Positions 22,969 to 47,472 of a stretch of DNA of 64,000 bases are shown piece by piece. Every line of letters begins with the position of its first letter. The first letter of the stretch is position 1. Origin of the DNA: an uncultured virus (IMG/VR IMGVR_UViG_3300011258_000929). Its lineage: Duplodnaviria; Heunggongvirae; Uroviricota; Caudoviricetes. Location of the stretch: IMG/VR virus record IMGVR_UViG_3300011258_000929; one strand, 5' to 3'. The notes under the pieces are model-generated. The model had not been told where the DNA came from and did not search any database. It saw only the letters and a program-made list of their open reading frames with translations. The translations under genes and the position numbers were made by a program.

Positions 22969-24159
22969 TCAAATGTTTCCGCCGACTGCTTTATGAATAT
23001 CGCCCCAAGACATTTCAGCAATCTCTTCTGTAGAGAAAACCTTTGTCGTTGTTGCGGCTTCTGTAGCCTTGCGAATGTTGTTCTTTTCTGTTGTAAGAGA
23101 TTTGCGTAGTTCAGCAAACTCATTTGTAAGTGCGGTAATTTCTGCTTGAGCATCATATTCCGACTTAGCAACCATAGTTTCTCTATGAGCAGTTTCTTGT
23201 GCAAATCTCTTAGCAAAAGTTCCTGCTAGGTTATCGTAAGCCAACTTTTCTAGTTGTTCTGCTCGGAATTGGGCATATGCCTTCTCGATGTTTTCAGCAC
23301 TCAAGTTAAGAGTGTTAAACTCGGAGTTGTCAAATGCCTTTGAAACCATACCTTCTTTCTTTGCTTGAAGTCCTGCTTGTTCCATAGGCTTTCCTGCTCC
23401 ACCTAGGTTTTCATCATCGTTACCGTCAAGAGTAGTGGCTTTCTTTTCTTCATCCATATACTCCATAGATTCTTCTTCGACTTCCATCATTTCTTCTTCC
23501 ATTTTCTCATTCAATGGGTGGCCTTGTCCCTTATCCATTGATGGTTCTTCTTCTTCTTTACGCAGGGTATTGACTTCCTCAAGAAGAGTGTCAAGTTCTG
23601 CCAGTGCTTTTTCTAATTTGCTCATATTTTTGTCCTCCTTTAATATATCGAACTTCGCTTCGGGATTGATTCCTTTTTCACATATGGTTACTTCATGTAG
23701 TTCGAGTTTGCTTATTTCGCTATACTCTCCCAATTCTTCATGGCGCTTCTTCACTTTTTGTAAAGCCTGTCCCCCTATGCTAAAACTCCTCAATGTTCCT
23801 TTGCGAATACTTCTGTTTATCTCTTTGGCTTTTTCAATATCATCTCTTAATTTTATTACTACAAAAAACCCGACATCATCTACTTCTGTTTTCCATAGTT
23901 TGCCGCTTGAATCTCTATATGATTGAATGACTTCTCCGACTTGAACATTTGAATGGTTTGTCATTACATTTCTAAACTTGTTCTTTTCCATGAACTTTAC
24001 TACTGCTTCATTTAGTGCCTTAAGAGTAATTAAGTCGTTTTGTTTATCCACCATTTCAATAGAAGCATAACCACCAATCATTAATTCGTCGCTTTTTGCT
24101 TTAATGATTGTGAAGTCATTTTCCTTTTGAGCAATAATGGTGTTTAACATATTGCTCAA
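22969..24159 (-). CDS. Prohead protease fused to scaffold
   Basis: IGGYAS...DKQND...NH...SFSIGG...LHEVT...NPEA HK97-type protease, acidic coiled C-terminal half. Confidence 0.85.
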   Translation of the reverse strand: MSNMLNTIIAQKENDFTIIKAKSDELMIGGYASIEMVDKQNDLITLKALNEAVVKFMEKNKFRNVMTNHSNVQVGEVIQSYRDSSGKLWKTEVDDVGFFVVIKLRDDIEKAKEINRSIRKGTLRSFSIGGQALQKVKKRHEELGEYSEISKLELHEVTICEKGINPEAKFDILKEDKNMSKLEKALAELDTLLEEVNTLRKEEEEPSMDKGQGHPLNEKMEEEMMEVEEESMEYMDEEKKATTLDGNDDENLGGAGKPMEQAGLQAKKEGMVSKAFDNSEFNTLNLSAENIEKAYAQFRAEQLEKLAYDNLAGTFAKRFAQETAHRETMVAKSEYDAQAEITALTNEFAELRKSLTTEKNNIRKATEAATTTKVFSTEEIAEMSWGDIHKAVGGNI

Positions 24160-24179
24160 ACCATCTTGTTAAACTTCGA

Positions 24180-26705
24180 CTATATAACTTGTTCTGTATT
24201 ATTAGGTAAATCAATGTCAATATACTTGTCTTTATAGATATTCCAAACGCCTTCATCGCTCTCTTTATCTACAGGTTTTTGCTCATAGCCAGTCCAAGCG
24301 AGCCACATTTTTTTACCATCTACGGGAATAACTCGGAAATGTATTTTAGTTTCAAACTTATTACCTTGAATAATGTATTCGTGATATCCGTGTCTTTGGA
24401 CTCCTATCTCTACAGTACCTTCATCTATTAATTGTCCCTTTTCTATATTCTTAGATATTTTAGCAGGGTATTTGTTTGCTTTACCAAACAAAGAGAATAT
24501 ATCATCATCATTAGGAAGGTCAATAAGCCAAGCGAGAGTTTCTCCTTTATGTTTAATGATAAAGTCTAAATTGTCGTCTTTTCTAGAATATATTTTGAAC
24601 TCGGACATTTCTTTTGTTATTTCTGTTTCATCTATGTGCAACTTACCATTAGAAAAAGAAATACCCTCTCTTTGATTAGCCCAGTTTTTTACATCTTTGT
24701 CCGAAGCCTTTGATAGTACCTTTAGCATTTTAGAAGAGTCACTATCAAAAAGGGTTTCATATTCGCTTGGCATTTTTTCTCTCAAATACAAGTGTACTTC
24801 TTTAGGAGTCTGTGGGCCTTTTTCTTTTATTCTGTTTTTTATAGCAACAGTAATTTTTCCTTGTATTGTTTTCAATGTTAATTCTGCTTCTTCTTTCCAC
24901 ATATCTAAGTCGGCTAGTGCGTTTTTAGACATTAAATTAGATTCTTCAAATCCATAAATTGTAAAACCATCCATTGACTTAGCAATCAATACTGCTTCGC
25001 CATGTATGTTATCAGTAATGGTGATTCCCTTTTTCAACGCCTCTATTTTATATTTTAAAGAAGGCTTAGTATTCTTAGATAACATCTCTAAAGTAACTAT
25101 TTTATCGGGAGTCTCTACTTCGGGGACTTCAATAACATTAGCGGAATAGAGAGTGTACCTACCATCGGATTCCTTGACTTCATCTACCTTTACTCTAATA
25201 ATGTCTCCGACTTTAACATTGGTTTTAGTATTCAATGCCTTTCCGACATTCATGTATAGAGTACCATTTAATTCAACAATGTGCTTTCCTTCTTCTAGAG
25301 ATGGCCCTGCTCCTAAAGTGTAAGAGTATAAGTTTGATTTTGTAGTTTTCTTATCTAGAACAATCATATCCAAATCTATAAACTTCTTCCATTTAATCCA
25401 TTTAGGATTTTTCTTAGTACCTATAAAATAAGTAGATGTTAAATCCTTTATGACAACTCCTTCGGAAGTCGGCATCTCCATAATCTCCTTAGCATACTCT
25501 TCTATGTCTTTTAGAGAGTCGGCAGTTCTAGTGTCTTTCTTAGAAGGGAAGTGTAGGGCATCCGATGTCTTGGCTGAATAGTTGTTAAAAAGAATATTGA
25601 TTCTTTGTTCTAGTTCCTCATCCGTCATGTTCTTTTCATCATGTCTCATTATGTCAAAAACATGTGCCTTAAGTTTGGCATTAGGATATTTATTTTTGAA
25701 TACATGTGAGATAGTGTCGGCTCTATGTAGAGCGTCTTCACCGTCAAATAATATTAGTTCAGCATCTAGTATGCAATCCCCATAAGACTTCTTCTTCATT
25801 TCAGTAACTTGGTCGGGACACTTATCAGTAATATCCTTTTCATTATATGAATAGATTTTAACTTGATTGTCTATTTTATGTATTTGTATTCTCATACCAT
25901 CATACTTTTCTTGAACTAAGTAGTCGCCGGAAAAACCTTGTAGTTCCTGCATGTCTTCTATGTCGAATATTCTATACATTGGTTTGTTTGGTATGATGAA
26001 GTGAGATATTGATTTTTCTTCTGTGGATTTTTTCTCGGCTTTTTTAAGTTCCACTTGGGTAAGAGCATTCCACTTTTCTTCGGAGTATTTTTCTATGAAC
26101 TTCTCTTGTAGTAGTTTTAATGCCTGTTTGAAACTAGACTCTACCTTTTTACTGTCTTTATTATCACCATAATGTTCTATTACAAACAATGGTATGTCTT
26201 TAACTTGAAGGTCTAATCCTTCCAAACCATCGGTAATGTCATCTCCTTGAAACTCCATTGATTCATAGAAGTCTTCGGGTAGTGCGTCATCGTCGGAACG
26301 AATAGCATAATGAATAAACTTTACAAATGTGCTTTTGTCCGACAATAGGCTCTCTAAAACATTACCTTTGAACTTTTTAGCGAATGGGTCATTAACATTT
26401 TCCGAGTCAAAACGCATTTGTTTAATTGCCTCATAGACAATTTTTGCACTACCACTAGACGGACTTCCTGCATCATCAGCCTCTACATGGCGTTCATCAA
26501 GGTATTCTTTTATCTCTTTACCTAGAGGGGATATAGAATCATACGCTTCTTTTATTTCTTCTAGTGCGTTTCTCCAACGACCCCCGTATTCTTTAGGGTC
26601 AGTTCGTGCTGATAAATAGGCTACTCGTACCTTTTCAAAAAGTGAAAGTATTTCATTTGAGATTGGGTTGCTGTCCTTCTCAAACATTAAGCCAGTGGTT
26701 GCCAT
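24180..26705 (-). CDS. lig: ATP-dependent DNA ligase with N- and C-terminal extensions
   Basis: EKYDGMRIQ (KxDG), LDAEL, FDIM, EGVVIK, WIKWK motifs. Confidence 0.9.
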   Translation of the reverse strand: MATTGLMFEKDSNPISNEILSLFEKVRVAYLSARTDPKEYGGRWRNALEEIKEAYDSISPLGKEIKEYLDERHVEADDAGSPSSGSAKIVYEAIKQMRFDSENVNDPFAKKFKGNVLESLLSDKSTFVKFIHYAIRSDDDALPEDFYESMEFQGDDITDGLEGLDLQVKDIPLFVIEHYGDNKDSKKVESSFKQALKLLQEKFIEKYSEEKWNALTQVELKKAEKKSTEEKSISHFIIPNKPMYRIFDIEDMQELQGFSGDYLVQEKYDGMRIQIHKIDNQVKIYSYNEKDITDKCPDQVTEMKKKSYGDCILDAELILFDGEDALHRADTISHVFKNKYPNAKLKAHVFDIMRHDEKNMTDEELEQRINILFNNYSAKTSDALHFPSKKDTRTADSLKDIEEYAKEIMEMPTSEGVVIKDLTSTYFIGTKKNPKWIKWKKFIDLDMIVLDKKTTKSNLYSYTLGAGPSLEEGKHIVELNGTLYMNVGKALNTKTNVKVGDIIRVKVDEVKESDGRYTLYSANVIEVPEVETPDKIVTLEMLSKNTKPSLKYKIEALKKGITITDNIHGEAVLIAKSMDGFTIYGFEESNLMSKNALADLDMWKEEAELTLKTIQGKITVAIKNRIKEKGPQTPKEVHLYLREKMPSEYETLFDSDSSKMLKVLSKASDKDVKNWANQREGISFSNGKLHIDETEITKEMSEFKIYSRKDDNLDFIIKHKGETLAWLIDLPNDDDIFSLFGKANKYPAKISKNIEKGQLIDEGTVEIGVQRHGYHEYIIQGNKFETKIHFRVIPVDGKKMWLAWTGYEQKPVDKESDEGVWNIYKDKYIDIDLPNNTEQVI

Positions 26706-26711
26706 ACCGCA

Positions 26712-27170: not shown

Positions 27171-27172
27171 AT

Positions 27173-27400
27173 TTACTGTCCTCCATTTACGAATCTCTCA
27201 ATGTCACTCCAACTCATTTTATGAATTGCGTCACTATCGGGCACTGTGCTGTTGTTCATTGAAGGAGTTGGTGAATCAACTACAACAAAACCGGACTTCA
27301 TTAATAGATTATCCTTGTTGTAAACGGCTGTTTCTAGTTCTCTAATCCTGCCGACTAATTCTTTCAAAATAACCAACATGTCTTCGTTTGTATCACTCAT
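27173..27400 (-). CDS. Mini scaffold-like protein
   Basis: C-terminus IHKMSWSDIERFVNGGQ matches protease-scaffold C-terminus IAEMSWGDIHKAVGGNI. Confidence 0.5.
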   Translation of the reverse strand: MSDTNEDMLVILKELVGRIRELETAVYNKDNLLMKSGFVVVDSPTPSMNNSTVPDSDAIHKMSWSDIERFVNGGQ

Positions 27401-27743
27401 CTCTCAAATCCCCTTTTCTCTTAGGATATACAATTGACCGTAAATCTCGGTACAGCAACTCATACTCCTTACGGAGTTTGCTCGACAACGCAACCATATC
27501 AATGTTCCTCTCATCAATACTTACAAACTTCTTTTTCATTTTATCATCGGCCTTAACTAAATCCAAATCTCTTAGCATATCAATTAACTCCCCCATTCTA
27601 GTAAAATCCTGCCCGAAATATTCTGTTGGTTCGGCTGATTGAAGGGTCTTCTTCAAAGACTTCTTCTTTTTCTTATCCATACTTTCTAGTATAGGGCTAT
27701 ACTCTTTTTCAATCTGTTCTTTCAATATGTATTCCCAAGTCAT
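27393..27743 (-). CDS. W-tag protein (MTWEYILK)
   Basis: Shared N-terminal motif. Confidence 0.55.
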   Translation of the reverse strand: MTWEYILKEQIEKEYSPILESMDKKKKKSLKKTLQSAEPTEYFGQDFTRMGELIDMLRDLDLVKADDKMKKKFVSIDERNIDMVALSSKLRKEYELLYRDLRSIVYPKRKGDLRDE

Positions 27744-29486: not shown

Positions 29487-29711
29487 TCACCACTTGTTTT
29501 CGGTTTTTCTTCTCTTCTTAACAGGTAGTTGTACTACATCGGGTGTATCTGCTGAACCTCTAGATGGCTTATGGCTTGTATCGGGAGGCAAACCACCAAC
29601 TGAATAGTCTCTATTCTTAGTAGTGTTTCTATCCTCGGCGGCTCTTTTAGAACGAACCTGTGCCAGTTCTTTTGCTAGTCTTCTTTCTTTCTGTGCTATG
29701 TCTTCTGTCAT
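29487..29711 (-). CDS. Small basic hypothetical protein
   Basis: Coupled to portal stop. Confidence 0.45.
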   Translation of the reverse strand: MTEDIAQKERRLAKELAQVRSKRAAEDRNTTKNRDYSVGGLPPDTSHKPSRGSADTPDVVQLPVKKRRKTENKW

Positions 29712-31357
29712 TATGGTATTCTCCTTTCACTTCTTCTATCCACATTTTGATTACCTGCATCCGCCGGTAGTCCTGTCATTCGCTTATCCGGCCCTACGCT
29801 CATTGATGGTTTATTTCTTGTGGTTGCCGGATTCTCTTGAGGTTTAGAACCTCCTTCCATCATGTTTCTCATATTCTCATCTAAATCTCTTTGGTCTAAA
29901 TTAGAACCTGCTAGTGGGTCTATGCCACTTTCGGCCTTATTTTCTTCTTGAGGTTTTTCTTCTACAGGTTCGGGTTTCTTAAAAGTAAAGTTACCGTCTT
30001 CATCCATATCCACTTCAAATCCTAGATTCTTAACAGAAGCCGCAATATTAACTTCTATTTCTCTCTTACGAAGAACGGCTATTTCATCCTCTTCTTCCGA
30101 AGGAGGTAGTTTCAAGACCCAATCCGTTACTCCGAATTGTTTAACTAAGAACGGGAATACATAATTATTATACACATTTTGAGCCATTTGAACTGCTCGA
30201 TTAGTTACAAGGATTTGCATACCTTCATTATTTAATCCCCCACTAGTGGTATTATCAGCCATGAAAACTTTACTCACTCCATAGAATGCTGATATTCTAT
30301 CTCTTAAGTCATCCTTAACAGCCGTATATTCCATCTCTTTTAGACTATCCATAAACTTAATCCATTCAACAGAACCCTTTCCATTCTCGGCTTCTATACC
30401 CATTACAGGAATGTAGTGGGGGTCTTGTTCCATTCTTTCTTTTACACTTCTCCAAAAACTAGACATTGATTCCATGTTTCTAGTTTGAACTGCTAGCAAT
30501 CCTCTAGGCATTCTACTCTTTGTATATGATGAATTAATATAATTCTCCATAGCAATTAGCGTCATAATGTGATTGAATAGTGTCATAACCGGAGAATGCC
30601 CGTATAGTCTACTAGGGCTATACTTACTAAAGTGTAGAACTTCTCCCTCAATGTAGTGTTGTTCTTCACCATTGGCCCTATTTACATAATGAATAGGGAA
30701 CAGTGGACTGCCACAATCATTACAATTTTCATGGGCTTCTTGAGAGATGTACCCTCTATGATTAATACAAGTAAATCCCTTAGTGCCTCTAATACCTAAT
30801 TCATCGGCGTAGATACTCATAGTAACAGGGTCGCCTCTAAACAATTCCTTTATTCTGTGCATTCGGATTTTACCATTACCGTCTAGGTAGTATTCCTTAA
30901 CAAGAACAATATACGCATCATCCATAATGTTTAGGTCGTCTTCTAATTCTTTGAATACATCAATGAATAGTTGTTCGGACTTATTGACATATCCTTCAAC
31001 AAACTTTTCAGCATACTCCAATTGTTTTGGGTCGGGTTTCTTTAGATTGGTTGAACCACACCTAGCACATTCTGTAACGGGTCTTTTATGTGTTTTTTGA
31101 CATTCATTGCATCGGGCTTCGTATGCTTTTTCCCAAACATAGCCCCTTCTAAATATCTCCTGCTTTAGTTGAGTAATACAAGTTCGGACAATAACAGACT
31201 GTTGAGTAATGTTATAGACCATTGGCCCAGTCATCATGTAAGAGTTTTCACGCTCTTGTATTCCGATGTTGTAGACCTTTCTATCAGCCGGTTTAGGGGT
31301 AGACCGTCGAAACAAATTGCTTATTTTGAATTGTCTCTTTTCCGCCATAGCACTCAT
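29711..31357 (-). CDS. Portal protein with Zn-ribbon insertions
   Basis: YGHSP, PRGLL, ISAFYGVS portal motifs; CNEC/CARC and CINH/CNDC clusters. Confidence 0.85.
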   Translation of the reverse strand: MSAMAEKRQFKISNLFRRSTPKPADRKVYNIGIQERENSYMMTGPMVYNITQQSVIVRTCITQLKQEIFRRGYVWEKAYEARCNECQKTHKRPVTECARCGSTNLKKPDPKQLEYAEKFVEGYVNKSEQLFIDVFKELEDDLNIMDDAYIVLVKEYYLDGNGKIRMHRIKELFRGDPVTMSIYADELGIRGTKGFTCINHRGYISQEAHENCNDCGSPLFPIHYVNRANGEEQHYIEGEVLHFSKYSPSRLYGHSPVMTLFNHIMTLIAMENYINSSYTKSRMPRGLLAVQTRNMESMSSFWRSVKERMEQDPHYIPVMGIEAENGKGSVEWIKFMDSLKEMEYTAVKDDLRDRISAFYGVSKVFMADNTTSGGLNNEGMQILVTNRAVQMAQNVYNNYVFPFLVKQFGVTDWVLKLPPSEEEDEIAVLRKREIEVNIAASVKNLGFEVDMDEDGNFTFKKPEPVEEKPQEENKAESGIDPLAGSNLDQRDLDENMRNMMEGGSKPQENPATTRNKPSMSVGPDKRMTGLPADAGNQNVDRRSERRIP

Positions 31358-31402: not shown

Positions 31403-31762
31403 CTAAGAACCCTTTCGCCATTTCTTGTTCTTTGGTTCTTTGGTTTTACTTCGACTCCATTTGACTTTATTAGCCCAATAAGCCGCCGACATTTTACCAC
31501 GCTTGATGTTCTTTTCGTGGCGACTATAAAATGCCTGTCTTTGTCCGGCAGTTTGATTTGTCTTAACCCCCTTTTGTCCGAAAGGAATGTATTTTGACTT
31601 TTTCCCATCCCAAGCCATAACATGATGAGATTTAGTTTTATGGTCTTTTAATCGCTGTGGTTTATTGACCGTAGAAAGACCTTTTTTCTTTGCTCTTTCA
31701 ATTGCCTTCTTTCTAGGACTTTTGGATTTAGGTTTCTTTTTAAGAATCTCTTGCCAACTCAT
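31403..31762 (-). CDS. W-tag basic protein (MSWQEILK)
   Basis: PFGQKG...FYSRH...SAAYWANKVKW body recalled from marine phage proteins. Confidence 0.6.
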   Translation of the reverse strand: MSWQEILKKKPKSKSPRKKAIERAKKKGLSTVNKPQRLKDHKTKSHHVMAWDGKKSKYIPFGQKGVKTNQTAGQRQAFYSRHEKNIKRGKMSAAYWANKVKWSRSKTKEPKNKKWRKGS

Positions 31763-32160
31763 TCTTCACCCCTCACTTGGTTTTCTTTAGAAGTCTTATC
31801 ATCATCAATTGGGCCTCCTTTAGCCCAAGTGTAGCAGGTTCTAGCCGAATGACATTTGAAATCGTGCATCCAACAGTAGCCTAAGCGACCGTCTTTATCT
31901 GTAGAAAGAGGCATACATTCATCCATTCTAGGTGAAATATCAAAGGCAATACAATTACTACAGTTTGATTCTTTAGCAACATCAGCAGTAGTATTCCATT
32001 TTTTAGCATATCGTTCCCAATAATCCTTATCGTCTAAATTAAGAGGGCCGTATTGAATATGTTTTTCTTTAACAGCCCTATCTCTATTTTTAGTATTGAG
32101 TTTCAAGTCTTGAGTCGCTCTAGGACAAGCGAGTTCCTTTAGGATGATATGCCAAGACAT
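31759..32160 (-). CDS. W-tag Cys-rich protein (MSWHIILK)
   Basis: CSNC...GYC...FKC...TC. Confidence 0.6.
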   Translation of the reverse strand: MSWHIILKELACPRATQDLKLNTKNRDRAVKEKHIQYGPLNLDDKDYWERYAKKWNTTADVAKESNCSNCIAFDISPRMDECMPLSTDKDGRLGYCWMHDFKCHSARTCYTWAKGGPIDDDKTSKENQVRGEE

Positions 32161-32162: not shown

Positions 32163-32540
32163 TTATTCCTCTTCGTCTTCGGGTAAGTCTAGACCATCTA
32201 GGAGTATGTAATCTCCTTTGTCATGTTGAACAACATTCTCCATTTGACTAAGCATCTCTTTAACTTCGTCTTTAGATAGTTTAGTTGCTTCTTCAAGAGG
32301 CTCTAGTCCCGACGCACCACCTTCTTTTTCTAAAGTGGAGACAATTGTTTCTTTTGGCCCTTCGGATTTTTTCTCTCTAAGTTGCCTAAAGTCATCAGCA
32401 TCAATTTTATTATTCTTGTTTCTATCTAGTTTTCTTTGCTTAGGGCTTAGTGCTTTACTTGTTTTTTCACTACAAGTAGGACAATCGCAACCCATTTTTT
32501 CTGTTCCGCAGTGTGCTTTTAATATTGTTTTCCATTTCAT
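32163..32540 (-). CDS. W-tag protein with EF-hand-like loop (MKWKTILK)
   Basis: DRNKNNKIDADDF. Confidence 0.55.
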   Translation of the reverse strand: MKWKTILKAHCGTEKMGCDCPTCSEKTSKALSPKQRKLDRNKNNKIDADDFRQLREKKSEGPKETIVSTLEKEGGASGLEPLEEATKLSKDEVKEMLSQMENVVQHDKGDYILLDGLDLPEDEEE

Positions 32541-32953
32541 CGTGTAAATCCTCTCCCTTTACTACCCTTTCTTCTTTTGTAAGTTTTACAAGCGGAACAT
32601 GTTGGCCTACACCTTTGTTTAGTTCCTTTAGAAGCATCTTTTCTTCCACAAGGTTTTGTTCCTTTCTTGTCATCTTCACATGATTGACAAGAAACCCAAC
32701 CTTTCTGTCCGTCTCCACCTCTTCGGGAAAACCAACCATGTAGTCCTTCTTTCTTTTCTCTAGCAAAATTATCTCCGCCTTTCTTAACTTTGCCTTTTGT
32801 TCCTTTTCTACATTGAACCATAAAGCCGGATTTGTATGCTGAACTTTTCATTCCGTATTTTTTATCCGCTAATTTAGCACACCTATCTTTAGGTTCGCCT
32901 TTACTATTATGGGTGGCAGTAGCCTTAACTTTTAGAATATCCTGCCAATTCAT
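32537..32953 (-). CDS. W-tag basic Cys-rich protein (MNWQDILK)
   Basis: SAYKSG...GLHGWF...KPCGRK...CRP. Confidence 0.6.
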   Translation of the reverse strand: MNWQDILKVKATATHNSKGEPKDRCAKLADKKYGMKSSAYKSGFMVQCRKGTKGKVKKGGDNFAREKKEGLHGWFSRRGGDGQKGWVSCQSCEDDKKGTKPCGRKDASKGTKQRCRPTCSACKTYKRRKGSKGRGFTR

Positions 32954-33071: not shown

Positions 33072-34598
33072 TCACTTTCTCCTCAAAGTATTTTGCCAAC
33101 TACCCCTCGCAGGTTTAGCATCCGATATCCCATATTTTCTTTTAACAGAACGAATTGCGGCTTCTTCACTCATGTTTCTAAATCGAACCAAGTCCTTTAC
33201 TTCCTGCTTTTGCCGCTCGTTCAAATCAGCCTTTGTAATAATACCACCGATATTTTCCATTTCATCCATAACAGACATTTTACAATTGCCTTGGTATTTT
33301 GAAATATCATCTACATAAATACCTTCTTTAGCAAAGTCAAAACCTACATGGTCTTTATGATTCTCCCACTTCATTAACTTAAATATCTCATCACAGCGAC
33401 CTTTATACCAATCGGCTTTCTTGTATGACTTCTTCATTCTAATTAGTTCCAGTAACAAATTAGCATTTCCTTGTTTCATTCGGAAGTGAGGTAAACATTT
33501 TGTGAGAAGTTCAGTTACTTCCGCTTGAGAATAAAAATTGAGACGGTTTACAGGTCTAGTGTCTTGAGGTGATTTTTGGTCTAGGTGTAACTTACCTATA
33601 CCTCCAAGTGCCTTATGTATTTCGTGCATAAATGCCTTTCCTCTTTCTCCTGTAGCAACCAATCCAACTCTAGGGTTATGGTTTCTATCCATAGTAATAT
33701 ATCCATCCGAGTCTATAAAAGCCGCCGTATAAGCCCAAATATTCTTTTTGATATCCGAATCTAATTTGTAATAGTTTCCATCAATTGATGTAATGTCTAA
33801 TTTCTTAACCATTTTAGATACTGAATGCCAAGAACTTCTATCATACAGTTGAGAAGGCATTCTATCATGTATCTCTCTAGCCGATATTCCTTGATTTTGA
33901 GATACTTGTTTTATGATAAAGTCCTCGGTTTTTTCCTTGAGAGACTTTCTAATTGATGAATCGGTTATGGACTTTATCTCACTTCTAAAGTCTTTTTTAG
34001 CGGCATTCATTTCTTTCTGTAGTTTTGAGTATTGCTTGCCATAAGAGGTTTCTTTTTGGTCTAGTTCTGCCTCCCAATACTTACAAAGAGAATCAATAAC
34101 TCTTCTTCTTTGGGGCAACTCTTTCATTTTATTTAACTTGGATAAGTCCCTCTCATTAAATCTCATTTTTATTAGAGCCTCTCTATATGGGCCTATCCAA
34201 TAAACGCTATCTATACACTTAGAGAGGTGTTCCGAATACCCTTCAATAACATTGTCTATTGCTTTAGTCATTTTTTCTTTGTCTTTGCCTTTTAGATTCC
34301 TTCTTTCCTTTCTCATGGCCTTGACAACATCGGGTATGGCTTGCCCGTACAATTCATATGTTTTAGGGAATGATTCAATATGTTTTTTTGCTTGAGAAGC
34401 ATTGATGTTGTATTGATTACAAACTTTAGCAACAATCTCATGTTCGGATGAAATAGATAAATTGTTTCTCAAACTTAATGCTATTTTATCACCAATAAGT
34501 TTCTTGGCTTCTTCCAAATCATTATTTGCCTCTTCTTCTAGTTCAGCAACCTGTTCTAGCCTTTGACTAGCCTCTCTTAGTTCATCCGGTGTTGCCAT
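33072..34598 (-). CDS. Coiled-coil/HTH protein with LAGLIDADG endonuclease domain
   Basis: WAYTAAFIDSDGYI motif, LPHFRMKQ. Confidence 0.75.
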   Translation of the reverse strand: MATPDELREASQRLEQVAELEEEANNDLEEAKKLIGDKIALSLRNNLSISSEHEIVAKVCNQYNINASQAKKHIESFPKTYELYGQAIPDVVKAMRKERRNLKGKDKEKMTKAIDNVIEGYSEHLSKCIDSVYWIGPYREALIKMRFNERDLSKLNKMKELPQRRRVIDSLCKYWEAELDQKETSYGKQYSKLQKEMNAAKKDFRSEIKSITDSSIRKSLKEKTEDFIIKQVSQNQGISAREIHDRMPSQLYDRSSWHSVSKMVKKLDITSIDGNYYKLDSDIKKNIWAYTAAFIDSDGYITMDRNHNPRVGLVATGERGKAFMHEIHKALGGIGKLHLDQKSPQDTRPVNRLNFYSQAEVTELLTKCLPHFRMKQGNANLLLELIRMKKSYKKADWYKGRCDEIFKLMKWENHKDHVGFDFAKEGIYVDDISKYQGNCKMSVMDEMENIGGIITKADLNERQKQEVKDLVRFRNMSEEAAIRSVKRKYGISDAKPARGSWQNTLRRK

Positions 34599-40478: not shown

Positions 40479-40521
40479 CTAGTTTATCGCAATACCCCAT
40501 ACTTCAAATAGTTATAGGGTT

Positions 40522-43075
40522 CTACATATAATATTTATTTCTAAACTCACTTCTAAGTTCCGCCTCTAATTTTTTGGCGGTATCGAGTTCAATGGCTTTT
40601 TTATGCTTAAGTGTAAGAAGTTCGTTTTTTTCTTTTTCATACTGTCTTAGTGTTTTTTCAAAGTCGCCTTTATACAAATCAACATTTTCAATGAGTCGAA
40701 CTATTATGTTATTCAATATGCTTTTTTGTTCATCCGGCATAGGTTCGTCTTTAGTAGTTACAACCTTGCCATTAACCACTATGCTAGTAAAGATATTCTC
40801 TTCAACCATTTCCTTATTCTGTTTTAATAACTCTTCTATATAATCCAAAGTAGAATAGAACTCCGAGTTATAGTACACTTCATCAATTTTTTCCGATATT
40901 AAGGAAACTGACTCAACACTTGCCTTAATGGGTGAGTAGGAACTTAAACTTACATAATTTTGTTTAAAGAACACCTCCTCTATTTTTTCATTAAACTTGT
41001 TTTTTGAATTGTTTGCAAAAGGAAGACCAATACTTTCTATTCCAAATCTATAGAATCCGTCCATTATTTCGTTATCATGAAGCCCGCTAACAAACTCTAA
41101 AAGGTAAGGGTATTCACTCAATCCCCTATATTCTTCCTCTAATTTTTTAGAATTTTTTTCCGCTTCTTGTAATATAAGCAATGCTCGACCTTTTGGGTTT
41201 CTAGCCATTGATTCTTTCTTTTGTCGTTCTTCGTCTTCTTTTTCTTTCTTTTGGTCTTCCTTTTCTTTTTGCCTTTCAGCCCAAGGCTTACCATAATATC
41301 TACTCATATCGGGCTTTTCATCGTCCCATCTCTTTCTTTTAATGATATTTTCCCAACTCATTGTAATCTCTCCTTTAATCTAATACAAAATGTAAATGTC
41401 CTGTTTTCTTATCATAGTCATCAAGTTTAAGGGTGAGATTATTATTGTTTTCATAGTCGGTATTGATGTCTTCATTTTTAAAGTAAATCCTAAACTCCCA
41501 AGTAAAATCGTCTTTAACCATATCATCGTTAATCCAAAATTTAATTTTTCCTTTACTATTATCCTTTACCTCAATGAGAGAAACCCTTTGTAAATTGATT
41601 TGTATATCATACTTAAAATCATCTAAATTTAAGTCAAAGTCATCTCCTTTTTTTCCACCTAAAGATATACCTATTTCTTCTATAATGTCTTTTTCTGTTG
41701 TCTTTCTTATTTCTTCTTTCCAACTCATTGTAATCTCTCCTGTATCAAAAGCCTCGGAATTTATTTTCTCTCATAAATTGACTACCACTTATAGGCGCAC
41801 CAAACTTCGGGTCTAGGTTCATTATCATAGCAAAAACAGATTTGTCCACGCCTTCTCTACCCGCTAGAATAGTTCCATTTTTGTAGTTCTTATGTGTCAA
41901 ATTATTATCATCGTAAATTCTTTTCAAATCCGAAACTACCATATCCCAAAATTTGACTCCTTCATCAGTAGTCCAATCCGCCACATTAGCGTTTTGTGCA
42001 TGGTCTTTTTCAATATACCAAAGTAGTCCACCCTTCTTTTGTTTTCTTCTCACCAAACTCTCAATTTCTTTAGGATTTTGATAGGAATATGAATCATCAT
42101 ACATTTCATCGGGTATATCTTCTATTGGTCTTAATTTCAATATATTATGCCAACTCATTGTAATCTCTCCTTCATTTTCTGTATATTAATTCCAAAGTAT
42201 TTGTTTAGCATAAAATACATATGTTCTTTGGCTTTTTTTATCTCTCTATCATAAAGCGACATGGCAGTATCTCTTTCTCCATCAATTAATTTTAATGCTG
42301 ATTCTATAATTTTGTCATCATCAACTTGCTTTTTGTCTTTGTCATCAATATTGCGGTTTATATCATCATAATCTTCCTCATGGGGAACACCTTCAATTCC
42401 CCTACCCGAAGTGCTACCATATTCTTCATCTTGTGTTAGAGTGTATGTTTTCTTAGTGGGTTTAGCAGTAAATACTTTAGGTTGGCCTTTGTCTTTGAAT
42501 CCATATTCAGTGTCAGCAAAGCGTGGCATTTGCCCGATTTCACTACCAAAAAATGAGTAGTCCACCGCTTCGTCAAAACTATAAGTCCAATACTTAGTAG
42601 TTTCATTGCCTTGAACTCCTTGAAATAATTCAGTATATGGTGCTACAAACTTTTGGTTTGAATATCCACCTTGCATAGTTTTATCGGGCATTTTGAATCT
42701 TTGTTCAATTTCATATGGTTTTTTAAGGATAGATTGCCAACTCATTGTAGCCTCTCCTGTATTTTAATCGAATAAGTTGTCGTCATTCTCTTCTAAATCA
42801 TTGCCTATTGGTTTAACATAAACCTCATATTCCATTGCGCCCATTTCAGCCTTTATGAATTTTAAGTAAGAAAGTAATTCTTTTCTAGTTCTAAAACCTG
42901 TATCATAAGACTCTACATCTCTTTCTTGAGATACGACATACAATTTCCATCCACCGTTTGATTTTATGTCTAGGGTTTCTATGGCAATAATCATATCGTG
43001 AATATTTTTCAATTCGTTCAAATCTCTTACCACTCTATCAATGTATGTTGATTTTAATATTTTTTTCCAATTCAT
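40522..43075 (-). CDS. Array of five W-tag genes (40522-41361, 41375-41728, 41745-42158, 42155-42745, 42764-43075)
   Basis: Starts MSWENIIK, MSWKEEIRK, MSWHNILK, MSWQSILK, MNWKKILK; unrelated bodies. Confidence 0.65.
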
Positions 43076-43088
43076 TGTAATCTCTCCT
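41353..43088 (-). repeat. Five direct repeats AGGAGAGATTACAATGAGTTGG (SD + start)
   Basis: Copies at 41353-41374, 41720-41741, 42150-42171, 42737-42758, 43067-43088 with 0-2 mismatches. Confidence 0.9.
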
Positions 43089-43725
43089 GCATTTTCTTCT
43101 TTACATCAAGCCAAACTTCGGGGTGTCCTTGTGCTAAAACTTCTTGAACAACTTGCATCTGTGCAACAATAATAGTGTCTTGTCGCTTATGCACTAATTT
43201 ACCCTTAAACTCCATCATGTATTTTAATGACTCCCTAATTTCTCTAGCCAACTTAACTAAAGCATCGAGTTCCTTAGCATCCAAATCATCTCTAGATGCT
43301 ATCTCGGTAATTTTAGTATCAAGTAGGCCAATGTTTCCGGCCAACATATCCACCTCATTCAACTCTTTCTTAGCAATTATATTTGCCGCCGACTGTTGAA
43401 CAATAGGTTGTAGATGGTGCTTAACATGACGATGAACCTGTGTCTTAGTAATTCCAAGACCTTCACTTACTTCTTCCGCAGTAATCAAACCCTCATGTAA
43501 TTGACGCTCATACTCGGCCCTGTGTGGGTCTATGCAAATAGCACATTTAGGATTACTACTATTGACATATTCTCCCATGTGGTTTCTTTGGTGCTGTGCT
43601 GATGTTCCACTACGCCAACCCATTTGCTCATCTAAAGCATCACATGAAATCTCCATGTCTTCTATTTGTCTTTCCAACTCATCAACATTCTCATGTTGGC
43701 AAAACAAACAACTTCTTCTACGCAT
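43072..43725 (-). CDS. Tandem Zn-binding HTH protein, possible terminase small subunit
   Basis: Two CxxC-x-H...H-x3-H repeats plus helical C-terminus; upstream of terL. Confidence 0.5.
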   Translation of the reverse strand: MRRRSCLFCQHENVDELERQIEDMEISCDALDEQMGWRSGTSAQHQRNHMGEYVNSSNPKCAICIDPHRAEYERQLHEGLITAEEVSEGLGITKTQVHRHVKHHLQPIVQQSAANIIAKKELNEVDMLAGNIGLLDTKITEIASRDDLDAKELDALVKLAREIRESLKYMMEFKGKLVHKRQDTIIVAQMQVVQEVLAQGHPEVWLDVKKKMQERLQ

Positions 43726-43726
43726 A

Positions 43727-44731
43727 TTAATTCACCAACAAATCTCGCCATGACTTAGTAATAGTTCTTGTTTTGACACTCATATTCGATTTCATATAAT
43801 ATTGCATCAAAGTCTTAGCCTTAGCAGGGGTTAATACAATACTAAAACTAGTAATGTTACCAACAACTCCCTGCATATTCGCATAACGCTTCAACATATT
43901 TACTGCTTTTTGATTACCACCGACTTCAAAAGAACGACCGCTTAGTTTAGAAGCAACCTTAGAAGCACTCACTCCACCTTCGCTTTTCGATGTGGATATT
44001 GCCTTACCTAATGCCTGTCTAAAAGAAGTTATTTCAGTTAAGTACTTAGCAGGTTTAGAAGTAGTAATCTCAATAGAATAATCCCTATTGTCTATCTCTT
44101 CTACTGCCTTCTCCATAATTTCAAGAAGACCAACAGTAACCAAGTCCCCTCCAAACAACGCTTGATAAATCGGAGGGGTAGCAGTGTCTTTTTTACTATT
44201 ATACCAACTTGGGTCACTTGTCCTGCCGTTCAATTTGTTTTTATGCTTGGCCTTAAAGTACTCATCCAAATAATGCCCGTAAATTTTTACTTTCTTAGTT
44301 CCTTTAGGATATGCACCTGTTTTTTTATTGAATCTAGCAGGTCTATTAAACATAATATTTTGAGGGTTTAAGGAAGGATGGTCTTTCAAATCCTCTATGT
44401 CGTTAATGGCCGTCTCTAGTAATTCAGCATCCTCTTCAAAATAAATGCCATCTCTTCTCTTGAGAATAAGAGCATCAATTTTATCCAATTCAATATAAGC
44501 ACCAGTTTGACCCTTATTAGGGGATTTGGGCCTAGCAATAGGAGGAGGCTTTACATGGTTCGTAAGAGCAGTCCATAAACTACCTCTTAGAACTCCAATA
44601 GCACCACCCTTTAAACTACGAACTGTTCTTTTCCATTCTACATAGTCATTATAGAAAGAAATAGGAACGCCCGAATCCTCTAAAATAGCGTCTCCAACTT
44701 TTTGTGTCTTCTTCGTTACTTTCTTTGGCAT
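43727..44731 (-). CDS. Basic hypothetical protein ending ITKSWRDLLVN
   Basis: ORF; C-terminal W motif. Confidence 0.5.
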   Translation of the reverse strand: MPKKVTKKTQKVGDAILEDSGVPISFYNDYVEWKRTVRSLKGGAIGVLRGSLWTALTNHVKPPPIARPKSPNKGQTGAYIELDKIDALILKRRDGIYFEEDAELLETAINDIEDLKDHPSLNPQNIMFNRPARFNKKTGAYPKGTKKVKIYGHYLDEYFKAKHKNKLNGRTSDPSWYNSKKDTATPPIYQALFGGDLVTVGLLEIMEKAVEEIDNRDYSIEITTSKPAKYLTEITSFRQALGKAISTSKSEGGVSASKVASKLSGRSFEVGGNQKAVNMLKRYANMQGVVGNITSFSIVLTPAKAKTLMQYYMKSNMSVKTRTITKSWRDLLVN

Positions 44732-47472
44732 TTCTTACACCTCTTTTTCTTTTTACCATATCTAGGTTTGAATAAATGTGAATGAGCAGGTGCGCTAGTA
44801 GTAACTGCCCCTGCTACCTTTTCGACGGATTCTATATTAGAACCTTCCTGTTTACAATCGCAACTATCCTTCAGTATGTCTTGCCAACTCATCTCAAATC
44901 ACCGGATAACGATACATGGGCTTCTTAGACATCTCAAAATAAGTATCTTCATCCATAATGTCCTCTACTTGACTATATTCTGTAACTTTGTCGCCACTTT
45001 TTGATGCAATCGCCTCAACTTTTACCGCCGACTTAGCATCCAAGGGATTCAAAAGAGTAATTCTTGGTTTTCCTCTTGTATATTCATCTCGCTCTCTTCT
45101 CAATTCCATAAAAAGACCTTTTCCTTTGCCAATTTCATAAATAAAACTGTTTCCTACGAAAAAAAACTCGCCCATGTCCTTGTAAGAAGTAAAACCTTCA
45201 ATTTCACCGGACTCATTTACCTCCGCAATCAAATTTAGAGGCGTGACTATCGAAGGATAGCCCTTTTCAACCGCAGTTTTGAACTTTTCAACTTTTTCAG
45301 CCACTTGAGCCTCGGTCAAAACCTCAATTTCCTTAATAATGTCCCACCAATTCAAGGTTTTCACAACCTTTTTTGATAAACAACATTAGCATCATTAATA
45401 TTTGACCGTTTTTTCTTAACCCAAGTAGAATTATCTAGGTATTTTCTTAAATGTGCTGACTTTAATGACTTAACACCTCGACTTTCAAGAGATTTTTTTA
45501 TAGAACTAAAAGTAAATTCCGTTCCGCTGTCTAAAACTTCGTGCAATTTGCGAACAATGGACTGTCTAAGCCCAATATTTGTCAAATCGTCTCGCCATGA
45601 CATAATCAAGCCCCTTCTATTTTCTCCATAAGAGCAAACATCAAATCCTGTATTAGTTTACTCCTATTATCATGTGACTTTTTAAGATTTTCAACTTCAA
45701 TCAAACTCAATTCTTCACCATTAGCAAACTTTCTAATAGCCTCATCAATCATTTTTAGAGTCTCAATTTGAAAACCAAGTGCATCAATAGCCTTTTGGCT
45801 TTCTGCAATGTTTTCTAGTTTGATAATGTCCCGCCAAGTCATTTCTTCACTTCTCTAATGTTTCTAAAATCCCTACTGTTCATAATAATCACTCCTTAAT
45901 ACTTCTTAAGTCAAAATCGGGATACGCCATATTAAACTCACCTTCTAAATCCTCGGATAATTTCAATAAGCGGGTTTCACCTGTTTCATGGTGCAGTTCT
46001 CTAATAAGAGCAATAGCGAGTTCTAAAGATTCTAGGGCTTGTTTAGCCATTTTAGGGTGTTCCGAAATAATGTCATCCATCGTTTTCTCTTTATAAGAAT
46101 CCTTTCTCTTTTTAGCCGCTTCTACCATCCGAGGACTAATATTCATAAAATCAGTTTGGTTTGGGTCAAATATGTTTTTCTTAATCTCATCTTTCCATGT
46201 CATAATAATCCCTCTAATAATTCCCAGTTGCATCTCCACCTGCCGAATGGTAGGCCGCTTTACCGTAAGAAGACATATTAGCCTCATCCTCATCACTATA
46301 ATATTTGGTAGGTTCTATTTCCTTTACTTCTCTTTCTTCCGTAACCAATGTTATGCTTGTTAAGGCTTCTATTAAACGAACCAAAGAAAGTTTAGTAACA
46401 GACTCATCTAATTCACTCTTTAAACTATCCATACGGTCTAGTATTTCTTTAATCATATCTTCCTTACTATCGGCATAACTTTCTTCTTTCAAAATCTGCT
46501 TTAGTATATCTGTCCATTTCATGTTAATCAACTCGTTTTTCTCAAAAAAATGTGGCGGATTTTTTTTCACATCAATTTGTCTGTGAGGTCAAAAACTAGA
46601 GATTCTGCTTTATCCAAATGCCTCATGACTTCTTTCAAATCACTATTCTGTTTCTTTTCGGCTATTTTTACAGCAAACTCCAGCGCACTCTCAATCATTA
46701 CCTGTAATTTACCTAAGTTATCAAACCTAGATTTATTATCCGGCATCCCATATTCTTTCTTAATTTTTTCTTTCCAACTCATGTTAATTCCTCCAAATTT
46801 TTCCCGTCATTTTTTTTCAACCATCATTGTATGTTGGGGAATAACTATACCATTCCCTTCTATGTCTATCAAATTCAATACCCGACTTCTTTCCGTTCAA
46901 AAACTCTAAAAGTCTCTTAGATGCTTCGGAATGAGGCGAGTCATCATTTGCTCTCATGTCCTTTAAAAATTCTAAACTACGCTCTAAAGATTCAATCAAA
47001 TAATCAGCCATTTTATTAGCCTCTGCAACTTCTCTAGCCCTTTCTCTCTTATCACTAGATTCATCACTATCGTAATTCTCTCTTCTTTGGCGCAAATACT
47101 CTAAAGACTCTTCATCCAATTTACTATCTGCCTTTACTATATTTCTCCACATGCTAATTTCTCCAAAATTTTCCCGTCATTTTTTACTAGTTTCTACTCT
47201 TTACCGTGATATTCTAAAGCCTCTTTTTCAAGAGTCTTTATTTCTTTCACTAATGCCGAAAGTTTTTGCTCGATTCTTTCATATGTTTCGGGCGAAGACC
47301 ATGAACTAGCAGCCCGTAAAATATCCCTTGCATCATCAACTTCGCTAAAAATGTCTTTAACTATTTTTATTCTTTCATTTCCTTTAGATGGATTTACCAT
47401 AAATGGTTCTAATCCTGTATCGTCATCTGCGAAGGCTCTTCTTTCGTCTTTCTTAATTGTATTTTTCCACAT
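44716..47472 (-). CDS. Array of nine W-tag genes (44716-44892, 44894-45364, 45361-45603, 45606-45842, 45889-46203, 46214-46522, 46567-46782, 46817-47152, 47194-47472)
   Basis: Starts MSWQDILK (missed by ORF track), LNWWDIIK, MSWRDDL, MTWRDIIK, MTWKDEIKK, MKWTDILK, MSWKEKIKK, MWRNIVK, MWKNTIKK. Confidence 0.65.

What the first reader, a model, noticed from the sequence alone, without database searches (positions are those of the whole stretch)
22969..47472. Shared W-x-x-I-[LI]-K tag on about 19 unrelated proteins: candidate capsid cargo-addressing system
Seen: 19 ORFs between 27.4 and 47.5 kb start with M-[STKN]-W-x-x-[IE]-[LI]-K or close variants, with unrelated bodies. A similar motif ends the protease-scaffold (EMSWGDIHK), the 75-aa protein 27173-27400 (KMSWSDIER), 43727-44731 (KSWRDLL) and the LAGLIDADG protein (GSWQNTLR). 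I saw no clear match among tail or plus-strand genes. Known: scaffold C-termini bind the capsid interior (P22), and T4 internal proteins use a short cleavable N-terminal capsid-targeting sequence. Inference: the tag mimics the scaffold's coat-binding helix, loads diverse proteins into the prohead, and is removed after the Lys. I know of no description of this in archaeal viruses.
Basis: partly seen in the sequence, partly recalled or inferred. Interest (0 to 1): 0.9.

Follow-up and report, generated by a model that had tools for sequence, protein, structure and literature searches.

The report
Shared address tag on magrovirus proteins
Nineteen otherwise unrelated genes beside the head-building genes of this ocean archaeal virus start with the same eight-residue peptide, which resembles the tail of the virus's own scaffold, so it most likely labels a fast-changing set of proteins for loading into the capsid, though loading has not been shown.

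Summary
Nineteen minus-strand ORFs between 27.4 and 47.5 kb begin M-x-W-x-x-[I/V]-[L/I]-K. Sixteen fit a strict pattern, against 0.02 expected. In 160 related loci, 750 such starts lie on the coding strand and none on the opposite strand. 586 tagged proteins fall into 214 unrelated groups, including a PAP2-like phosphatase.

Selection acts on the peptide. Ile, Leu and Lys codons vary as they do in the gene bodies, and GTG and TTG starts keep the motif. Only codon 2 is biased at the DNA level.

A similar motif ends the protease-scaffold (77 of 77 relatives), a 75-aa copy of the scaffold tail, the 334-aa protein family, and GNAT acetyltransferases in relatives. The tag therefore works at either end of a protein.

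My best reading (about 0.5) is a capsid-targeting peptide, working like the phage T4 capsid targeting sequence (CTS) and perhaps cut after the Lys. Neither packaging nor cleavage has been shown.

Searches of the held papers found no description of this tag. This scan has already noted the same tag in at least eight other windows from other genomes, with the same reading.

The parts
27393..27743 (-). Tagged ORF, 116 aa, MTWEYILK. Core family sitting next to the 75-aa mini-scaffold.
   Evidence: In most relatives the N-terminus is the degenerate M-[TD]-W-[DN]-[WYF]-Y.
31403..31762 (-). Tagged ORF, 119 aa, MSWQEILK. Very basic (pI 11.0).
   Evidence: phrog_7595 matches residues 19-102 only (E 3.4e-23), so the profile of this family does not cover the tag.
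31759..32160 (-). Tagged ORF, 133 aa, MSWHIILK. Body rich in Cys and His.
   Evidence: In the alignment of 33 distinct sequences, M1, W3, I5, I6 and K8 are invariant.
32163..32540 (-). Tagged ORF, 125 aa, MKWKTILK.
   Evidence: Weak EF-hand hits below the Pfam cut-off. Largest body cluster, 68 members.
32537..32953 (-). Tagged ORF, 138 aa, MNWQDILK. Basic and Cys-rich.
   Evidence: Weak DUF5872 hit at residues 24-88.
40522..41361 (-). Tagged ORF, 279 aa, MSWENIIK.
41375..41728 (-). Tagged ORF, 117 aa, MSWKEEIR (loose variant).
41745..42158 (-). Tagged ORF, 137 aa, MSWHNILK.
42155..42745 (-). Tagged ORF, 196 aa, MSWQSILK.
42764..43075 (-). Tagged ORF, 103 aa, MNWKKILK.
44716..44892 (-). Tagged ORF, 58 aa, MSWQDILK.
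44894..45364 (-). Tagged ORF. The motif NWWDIIK follows a TTG at 45355, or lies five codons after the GTG at 45364.
45361..45603 (-). Loosely tagged ORF, 80 aa, MSWRDDLT.
45606..45842 (-). Tagged ORF, 78 aa, MTWRDIIK.
45889..46203 (-). Tagged ORF, 104 aa, MTWKDEIK. Read from an internal ATG of a longer ORF.
46214..46522 (-). Tagged ORF, 102 aa, MKWTDILK. Read from an internal ATG of a longer ORF.
46567..46782 (-). Loosely tagged ORF, 71 aa, MSWKEKIK.
46817..47152 (-). Tagged ORF, 111 aa, MWRNIVK (M directly before W).
47194..47472 (-). Loosely tagged ORF, 92 aa, MWKNTIKK.
22969..24159 (-). Prohead protease (Peptidase_S78, residues 24-178) fused to an acidic scaffold region. The C-terminal tail is EMSWGDIHKAVGGNI (motif at 22993-23016). 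A conserved F-D-I-L-K lies at residues 170-174 (23638-23652).
   Evidence: Pfam and PHROGs. Tail conserved in 77 of 77 relatives. Hydrophobic-hydrophobic-Lys at residue 174 conserved in 63 of 63 distinct sequences.
27173..27400 (-). 75-aa 'mini-scaffold', a paralogue of the scaffold C-terminus. Its tail is KMSWSDIERFVNGGQ (motif at 27194-27217).
   Evidence: Tail conserved in 41 of 45 homologues. It clusters with the protease-scaffold by BLAST (cluster 0).
43727..44731 (-). 334-aa basic protein ending KSWRDLLVN (43730-43756).
   Evidence: All 10 homologues that reach the C-terminus end [KS]-[SM]-W-x-x-[VILY]-L. Cluster 2.
21612..22958 (-). HK97-fold major capsid protein, the presumed docking surface. 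It has an N-terminal helix at residues 7-15, then a low-confidence linker at 18-52 that holds the nearly invariant K27 (22878-22880).
   Evidence: PHROGs major head protein. AlphaFold2 model with pLDDT 82.9. Foldseek matches to the Mic1, SU10, HK97 and T5 capsids. K27 is K in 120 and R in 6 of 132 sequences.

Best explanation
The octapeptide [M/K]-x-W-x-x-[I/V]-[L/I]-K is a short, portable docking peptide. It probably forms an amphipathic helical turn with W, I and L on one face. It is attached to the N-terminus, and in some families the C-terminus, of a large and fast-changing set of small soluble proteins encoded in the head-morphogenesis arm of magroviruses. It resembles the conserved C-terminal tail of the protease-scaffold and of a 75-aa copy of that tail. 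I therefore infer that it binds the same partner inside the assembling prohead, either the HK97-fold capsid shell or the scaffold core. The tagged proteins would then be enclosed in the capsid and delivered into the host with the DNA, as happens with the internal proteins of phage T4. The prohead protease may then cut after the Lys and free the cargo.

Shown here: the motif, its strict placement at protein ends, amino-acid-level selection, the unrelated bodies, restriction to the head-module strand, and the likeness to the scaffold tails. Inferred: binding, packaging, ejection and cleavage.
For: (1) Sixteen strict and three loose N-terminal tags are in the window, against 0.019 expected.
(2) In 80 relatives found through the large terminase subunit TerL (1.37 Mb), 567 tagged ORFs lie on the coding strand and 0 on the opposite strand. 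In a sister clade (TerL about 57% identical; 0.96 Mb) the counts are 183 and 0. In 4 complete genomes of about 95 kb, all 24 strict DNA matches are on the TerL strand and within the head arm, and the reversed control pattern gives 0.
(3) 586 tagged proteins fall into 214 BLAST clusters, 129 of them singletons, and conservation stops right after K8. The bodies include a soluble PAP2-like phosphatase and phrog_7595 and DUF5872 relatives whose profiles do not cover the tag.
(4) Selection is on the peptide. Ile, Leu and Lys codons at tag positions 6-8 are used about as in gene bodies, and all six Leu codons occur, in 612 distinct starts. Orthologues with GTG or TTG starts keep the motif.
(5) The same motif sits at C-termini: 168 of 2353 coding-strand ORFs against 2 of 993 on the opposite strand. 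These form 6 clusters: protease-scaffold plus the 75-aa protein, GNAT acetyltransferases just upstream of TerL, the 334-aa family, a DUF5872 protein and two others.
(6) None of the 214 cluster representatives has a predicted membrane segment.
[quoted passage not shown] In the 10-residue T4 CTS, residues 4 and 7 matter for targeting and residues 8 and 10 for cleavage (PMC9026906, passage). That spacing parallels W3/I6 and L7/K8 here.
(8) Hints of cutting after a hydrophobic-x-Lys: K27 of the MCP is nearly invariant (126 of 132 are K or R) and lies in a low-confidence linker after an N-terminal helix. F-D-I-L-K is invariant at the end of the protease domain.
Against: There is no direct evidence that any tagged protein is in a virion, or that the tag is cut. 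N-terminal tags keep I/V-L-K in the 9 loci whose scaffold tail reads W-A-D-L-N-R, so tag and scaffold tail do not co-vary (small sample). The scaffold tail has H or N where the tag has L, and it carries an extra x-V-G-G extension, so the two may not share a site. Nineteen different cargo species per genome is many for a capsid holding about 95 kb. The block at 40.5-47.5 kb lies at the upstream end of the leftward gene arm, where early host-takeover genes might also be expected. The related halovirus HVTV-1 shows no such tag in the 41-kb region examined. The hydrophobic-Lys sites in the MCP and the protease may be conserved for structural reasons.
Confidence: 0.5

Rival explanations
1. The tag is a short linear motif that docks these proteins on a hub outside the capsid. 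Candidates are the virus's own chaperonin or a host machine such as the RNA polymerase, the sliding clamp PCNA, the ribosome or the proteasome. The tagged set would then be early host-takeover or anti-defence proteins acting in the cytoplasm.
For: The motif works at either end of a protein and is short, like a docking motif. The 40.5-47.5 kb block is the first part of the leftward arm, next to the divergent region. The bodies are hypervariable, as anti-defence genes are. The virus encodes a chaperonin. The tags do not co-vary with the scaffold tail.
Against: It does not explain why the protease-scaffold and its 75-aa tail copy carry the motif exactly where capsid-binding tails sit in other tailed viruses. 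The tags are absent from the replication arm and from the tail genes. Five tagged genes lie among the portal, terminase and scaffold genes.
Confidence: 0.2
2. The tag is mainly a recognition and cleavage signal for a protease, either the S78 prohead protease or a host enzyme. It would act as a removable propeptide, like the N-terminal extension shared by ribosomal protein L27 and the capsid and scaffold proteins of staphylococcal phage 80alpha (recalled, not looked up), and targeting would be secondary.
For: A conserved hydrophobic-hydrophobic-Lys lies at the end of the protease domain. K27 is nearly invariant in a flexible MCP linker. The tag ends in I-L-K.
Against: Eight residues are unlikely to mask the activity of more than 200 different folds. 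C-terminal tags lie 0-8 residues from the end, so cutting there would remove almost nothing. A prohead protease acts inside the shell, so its substrates must first be inside, which folds this reading into the main one.
Confidence: 0.15
3. The tagged genes are one expanded paralogous family that has kept only its N-terminus.
For: Many bodies are small, charged and helical-looking with no Pfam match (111 of the 113 representatives scanned), so remote common descent of some of them cannot be excluded.
Against: There are 214 BLAST clusters. The matched families differ: PAP2, GNAT, DUF5872, phrog_7595 and Cys-rich proteins. The motif occurs on the N- or the C-terminus. Conservation ends abruptly after K8. 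The phrog_7595 profile starts at residue 19 of the tagged protein.
Confidence: 0.05
4. The conserved element is a nucleotide signal at gene starts, for translation initiation, translational coupling or recombination between gene cassettes, and the peptide is a by-product.
For: Codon 2 is strongly biased: Ser is AGT in 85% of cases against 29% in bodies. A GGAG-like Shine-Dalgarno sequence lies about 8 nt upstream, and several starts overlap the preceding stop as ATGA. Fusions that join two genes at a tag exist in relatives.
Against: Synonymous codons at I6, L7 and K8 follow the background usage. Copies at C-termini and inside proteins keep the peptide. GTG and TTG starts keep it too.
Confidence: 0.05

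Closest known systems
Capsid targeting sequence (CTS) of phage T4 internal proteins IPI-III, and the polymorphic internal proteins of T-even phages
   Same: A short N-terminal peptide is the only thing shared by a diverse, fast-evolving set of proteins encoded by a tailed virus. Key hydrophobic positions are three residues apart and are followed by residues that matter for cleavage (PMC3012670 and PMC9026906, passages).
   Different: There is no sequence likeness (the T4 CTS sequence is only recalled). The protease here is HK97-type Peptidase_S78, not T4 gp21-type. The scale is far larger: 19 per genome and at least 214 body families. The motif is also used at C-termini and resembles the scaffold's own tail. 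The host is an archaeon. Packaging and cleavage are unproven here.
C-terminal capsid-binding tails of scaffolds and prohead proteases (P22 gp8, HK97 gp4, staphylococcal phage 80alpha scaffold and its SaPI1 mimic CpmB)
   Same: A conserved short motif at the extreme C-terminus of the protease-scaffold, and of a small paralogue of its tail, is where such tails sit. In 80alpha a second protein copies the scaffold tail to reach the same site (recalled).
   Different: Here the look-alike motif is spread over hundreds of non-scaffold proteins, mostly at their N-termini. Binding to the MCP was not shown. The work on HK97 protease encapsidation (Duda, Oh and Hendrix 2013) was seen only as a title in a reference list. 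The rest is recalled.
Cargo-loading peptides of encapsulins
   Same: A terminal peptide addresses unrelated cargo enzymes to the inside of an HK97-fold shell. The MCP model also matches encapsulin shells.
   Different: Encapsulins are cellular compartments without a portal, terminase or DNA. Their peptides are mostly C-terminal with other consensus sequences (recalled). This is a virus with a portal and TerL.
Polyvalent or large internal head proteins of tailed viruses (for example the 1313-aa gene 115 product of halovirus HVTV-1, annotated 'zeta toxin')
   Same: These are accessory effector domains encoded within the head module, next to the portal, protease and MCP genes. They are thought to travel in the capsid (recalled).
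   Different: There the domains are fused into one giant protein. Here each small protein would carry its own tag. HVTV-1 shows no such tag in the region examined.

Membership tests
T4-type capsid targeting sequence system | A short terminal peptide shared by otherwise unrelated proteins of one virus | tested here: met
   19 in the window; 586 proteins in 214 body clusters.
T4-type capsid targeting sequence system | T4 gp21-type prohead protease and core scaffold | tested here: not met
   The protease matches Peptidase_S78 (E 9.2e-10) and S78_2, the HK97 type.
T4-type capsid targeting sequence system | Tagged proteins are present in proheads and virions and are ejected | not testable with these tools
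   The virus is uncultivated and no proteomic data are available here.
T4-type capsid targeting sequence system | Tag removed by the prohead protease at a defined site | not testable with these tools
   Hints only: conserved F-D-I-L-K at the end of the protease domain and MCP K27.
Scaffold or protease C-terminal capsid-binding tail | Conserved motif at the extreme C-terminus of the scaffold or protease | tested here: met
   77 of 77 relatives. The 75-aa paralogue has it in 41 of 45.
Scaffold or protease C-terminal capsid-binding tail | The tail binds the inner face of the major capsid protein | not testable with these tools
   Needs biochemistry or a procapsid structure.
Encapsulin cargo-loading peptide | HK97-fold shell | tested here: met
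   Model pLDDT 82.9. Foldseek matches to HK97, T5, SU10 and encapsulins.
Encapsulin cargo-loading peptide | Non-viral compartment without a portal or terminase | tested here: not met
   The portal and TerL are encoded beside the MCP.
Single paralogous gene family | Detectable homology of the bodies | tested here: not met
   214 BLAST clusters. Different Pfam and PHROG families: PAP2, GNAT, DUF5872, phrog_7595.
Nucleotide-level start-site signal | Conservation of bases beyond what the peptide requires | tested here: not met
   Codon use at tag positions 6-8 equals the background. Only codon 2 is biased.
Magrovirus-like archaeal tailed virus head module | HK97-fold MCP, S78 protease, portal and TerL in one block, with halovirus-like MCP relatives | tested here: met
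   The only hits in the phage collection are haloviruses at 24-25% identity. The name 'magrovirus' rests on likeness to published descriptions, not on a named reference genome.

The most novel reading that the evidence does not exclude
Magroviruses, among the most abundant archaeal viruses of the surface ocean, use one eight-residue peptide that works at either end of a protein as a universal loading label. Through it they pack a personal, rapidly changing arsenal into the capsid and inject it with the DNA. The arsenal comprises more than 200 protein families in the 160 loci sampled and includes acetyltransferases and a phosphatase. This would be by far the largest capsid-cargo repertoire known, the first in an archaeal virus, and a ready-made tag for loading foreign proteins into HK97-type shells.
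Probability: 0.45. Interest if true: 0.85.

Novelty: new variant of a known kind. Interest (0 to 1): 0.75.

Why it matters
If the tag loads cargo, about a fifth of the genes in this arm stop being 'hypothetical proteins'. They become a defined class: virion-delivered effectors of uncultured viruses that infect Marine Group II archaea, a major ocean lineage. The tag gives a simple sequence rule for finding them in metagenomes. It makes testable the question of how an archaeal virus takes over or disarms its host in the first seconds of infection. It also offers a minimal peptide for packing proteins into HK97-fold particles. If the tag instead docks on a cytoplasmic hub, it would point to an unknown central target of virus-host conflict in these archaea.

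Tried and rejected
- **Complex prediction.** The MCP (alignment A2) was folded with the first 40 residues of tagged proteins (alignment A3). The result was a score of 0.00 with no verdict and no controls run. It is not evidence either way.
- **Fold of the Cys-rich tagged family (A1).** Mean pLDDT was 39.8, so the model is unusable.
- **RNA evidence.** No RNA holder was listed for 40500-47500, and no reads were laid.
- **Own genome.** None is held.
- **Halovirus HVTV-1.** I looked for the same tag or tail and found none in 41 kb.
- **MCP N-terminus as a tag copy.** Y-I-N-T-I-[R/A]-D is conserved, but the basic residue is not, so the likeness is weak.
- **LAGLIDADG tail.** Not conserved; seen in 2 of 80 homologues.
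- **G-G near the scaffold end as a ubiquitin-like tail for the ThiF and JAB genes.** Rejected, because many relatives end A-G-N, S-G-N-Y, N-N-I or K-M-E.
- **Co-variation of the tag with the scaffold tail.** None was seen.
- **Pfam on tagged bodies.** 113 of the 214 cluster representatives were scanned and only 2 had hits. The other 101 were not scanned.
- **Genome-contig scan.** It found only mis-binned viral contigs in bacterial metagenome-assembled genomes, and no host context.
- **HK97 cleavage-site literature.** One paper turned up and was not pursued. PMC3709472 is not held.

Full report
**What the window is**

The minus strand from about 1 to 47.5 kb carries tail and head genes. They include:
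- a tail tube protein (12879-14480);
- an HK97-fold major capsid protein, MCP (21612-22958);
- a Peptidase_S78 prohead protease fused to an acidic scaffold region (22969-24159);
- an ATP-dependent ligase (24180-26705);
- the portal (29711-31357);
- a LAGLIDADG protein (33072-34598);
- the large terminase subunit, TerL (34608-36029).

The MCP model is confident (pLDDT 82.9). It matches the Mic1, SU10, HK97 and T5 capsid proteins and encapsulin shells.

The plus strand from about 51.9 kb carries a UvrD-like helicase, a TFIIB-like protein, a ThiF-like protein, a JAB-like protein and a chaperonin.

In the phage collection, the only relatives of the MCP are haloviruses HVTV-1, HCTV-1 and HCTV-5, at 24-25% identity. 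This fits published descriptions of magroviruses (PMC5434244, passages). No whole genome is held for the window.

**The observation**

A six-frame scan for W-x-x-[ILVME]-[ILV]-[KR] gave 29 matches. Sixteen sit directly after the start codon of minus-strand ORFs between 27.4 and 47.2 kb. Two need an internal ATG, and one has a TTG start or an offset GTG start.

From the amino-acid composition of the 106 minus-strand ORFs, 0.019 such starts are expected. No tail gene or plus-strand gene has the motif at its start.

**It is a property of the virus lineage**

- In 80 IMG/VR loci found through TerL (77-99% identity; 1,365,134 bases), 567 ORFs of at least 40 codons start with the motif on the coding strand and none on the opposite strand.
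- In a sister clade whose TerL is about 57% identical to the window's (80 loci, 962,009 bases), the counts are 183 and 0.
- In four records that CheckV rates complete (about 95 kb each), all 24 strict DNA matches are on the TerL strand and within the head arm. The reversed control pattern matches nowhere.
- The consensus is M, then mostly S/T/N/K, then W, x, [D/E/N], [I/V], [L/I], K. After the K nothing is conserved.

**The bodies are unrelated**

The 19 window proteins plus the 567 relatives (586 in all) form 214 clusters by all-against-all BLAST of the sequence after the tag; 129 are singletons.

I scanned 113 of the 214 representatives against Pfam. Only two had hits:
- a PAP2-superfamily domain, in a protein with no hydrophobic segment and with the phosphatase motifs visible in its sequence;
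- DUF6943.

In the window, one tagged protein matches phrog_7595 from residue 19 onward (E 3.4e-23), so that family's profile does not cover the tag. Others give weak DUF5872 or EF-hand hits.

None of the 214 representatives has a predicted membrane segment. Median length is 105 aa. Ninety are acidic (pI below 6) and 97 are basic (pI above 8).

**Peptide or DNA?**

In 612 distinct tagged starts, the codons for I6, L7 and K8 are used roughly as in the bodies of the same genes, and all six Leu codons occur (the window's own codons are). Orthologues first scored as untagged mostly have GTG or TTG in place of ATG and keep the motif. Selection is therefore on the peptide.

Codon 2 is different. Ser there is AGT in 85% of cases, against 29% in bodies. 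Several starts overlap the preceding stop as ATGA, and a GGAG-like ribosome-binding site lies about 8 nt upstream.

**The motif at other protein ends**

- *Protease-scaffold.* It ends [E/D/N]-M-x-W-x-[D/E]-[I/V/L]-[H/N]-[K/R] followed by a few residues, in 77 of 77 full-length relatives at 60-97% identity.
- *75-aa protein (27173-27400).* It ends the same way in 41 of 45 homologues. The other four have M-S-F-[D/E]-[D/E]-M-A-K. It clusters with the scaffold by BLAST, so it is a small paralogue of the scaffold tail.
- *334-aa protein (43727-44731).* All 10 homologues that reach the C-terminus end [K/S]-[S/M]-W-x-x-[V/I/L/Y]-L.
- *Systematic count.* 168 of 2353 coding-strand ORFs in loci L001-L160 carry the motif within 8 residues of the C-terminus, against 2 of 993 on the opposite strand. 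They form six clusters. One is a family lying just upstream of TerL in relatives; three of the four members I scanned match GNAT acetyltransferases. Another is a DUF5872 protein.
- *Fusions.* A few relatives have fusions in which the motif lies between two domains.

The motif is thus a portable end-piece and not a feature of the N-terminus as such. This argues against signal-peptide, N-degron or initiation-context explanations.

**Most likely mechanism**

In tailed viruses, the extreme C-terminus of the scaffold or the prohead protease is the part that holds it to the inside of the shell. This is known for P22 and HK97; I recall it, and saw only the title of the HK97 paper.

In T4, a 10-residue N-terminal capsid targeting sequence (CTS) is the only thing shared by a diverse set of internal proteins. 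It suffices to load foreign proteins and is then cut off by the prohead protease (PMC3012670 and PMC9026906, passages).

The magrovirus tag has the same logic. An aromatic residue and a hydrophobic residue lie three apart, followed by L-K. The tag sits on soluble, hypervariable proteins encoded in the head arm, and it resembles the scaffold's own tail.

I therefore read it as a capsid-loading label, with confidence of about 0.5. The partner could be the MCP or the scaffold core.

Two hints fit cutting after a hydrophobic-x-Lys:
- K27 of the MCP is K or R in 126 of 132 homologues, down to 27% identity. It lies in a low-confidence linker (residues 18-52) after an N-terminal helix.
- F-D-I-L-K is invariant at the end of the protease domain in 63 distinct sequences.

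Both sites could instead be conserved for structural reasons.

**What speaks against it**

- Nothing shows packaging.
- Tags do not follow the scaffold-tail variant W-A-D-L-N-R in the nine loci that have it.
- The scaffold tail differs from the tag at the L position.
- The 40.5-47.5 kb block is where early genes could also lie.
- The main rival reading is a docking motif for a cytoplasmic hub (about 0.2).
- The lesser rivals are a pure cleavage signal, a single paralogous family and a nucleotide signal; each is weighed in its own section.

**Novelty**

The held library has 22 papers containing 'magrovirus'. Three of them also contain 'N-terminal', and none of those concerns such a tag, judging by title and abstract for two (PMC7544198, PMC12934983) and by passages for the third (PMC8651126). 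Passages of PMC5434244, PMC11706807 and PMC8651126 say nothing about it. Supplements were not examined.

This scan has already recorded the same tag in at least eight other windows from other genomes, with the same reading. One of those notes prompted my check of possible protease sites.

In kind, this is a new variant of a known principle (capsid targeting peptides). It is new in sequence, scale, use at either protein end, and host domain.

Noticed in passing
window 47592-51267 (minus strand) and 51910-63227 (plus strand): Many ORFs outside the tagged block end in acidic runs such as EEE, SEE or VEE (for example 49025-49324, 49910-50431, 61067-61339, 62150-62704, 62701-63006, 63003-63227). 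This may be the next gene's ribosome-binding site read in frame, or a second shared end-motif.
   Followed up: no
window 60364-60942 and 62150-62704 (plus strand): A ThiF/E1-like protein (Pfam ThiF, E 2.6e-15) lies near a weak JAB/MPN-like protein that has an H-x-H...S..D motif. Together they may form a virus-encoded ubiquitin-like conjugation pair.
   Followed up: partly
window 59543-60382 (plus strand): A virus-encoded protein with a TFIIB-type zinc ribbon (E 7.8e-8), possibly a transcription initiation factor.
   Followed up: no
window 63209-63999 (plus strand): A Cpn60/TCP-1 family chaperonin runs off the end of the window. It is preceded by a 91-aa ORF that looks like a co-chaperonin by eye but has no Pfam hit.
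   Followed up: no
window 54901-55052 (plus strand): Adjacent tRNA-Arg(TCT) and tRNA-Met(CAT) genes.
   Followed up: no
window 22878-22880 (MCP K27) and 22914-22916 (MCP Y15): K27 (126 of 132 are K or R) and Y15 (130 of 132) are nearly invariant in MCP homologues down to 27% identity, although they lie outside the HK97 core. K27 may be the maturation cleavage site.
   Followed up: partly
window 33072-34598 (minus strand): The last 50 or so residues of the LAGLIDADG ORF (453-501) resemble the N-terminal region (residues 6-55) of tagged proteins of the largest cluster in relatives. This suggests a small domain shared or exchanged between them.
   Followed up: no
L074:10762-11451, L077:6133-6822, L049:14600-15085, L015:9261-10001: In relatives, some reading frames run through from one protein into a tagged one, so the motif lies between two domains (for example ...AAYASGYVKK-SWFDILKK... 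before the PAP2-like body). Genes may have been fused at the tags.
   Followed up: partly
L013:13103-13405, L033:13042-13404 and similar: In one basic family the motif follows I-[N/K]-W with no ATG, GTG or TTG nearby. These proteins may use an ATH start codon or carry an N-terminal extension.
   Followed up: no
window 24180-26705 (minus strand): An 841-aa ATP-dependent DNA ligase gene sits inside the head module, between the protease-scaffold and the mini-scaffold genes.
   Followed up: no
window 48111-48503 (minus strand): A 130-aa protein of the Kyanoviridae Gp96 family (E 1.3e-15), a family otherwise named from cyanophages.
   Followed up: no
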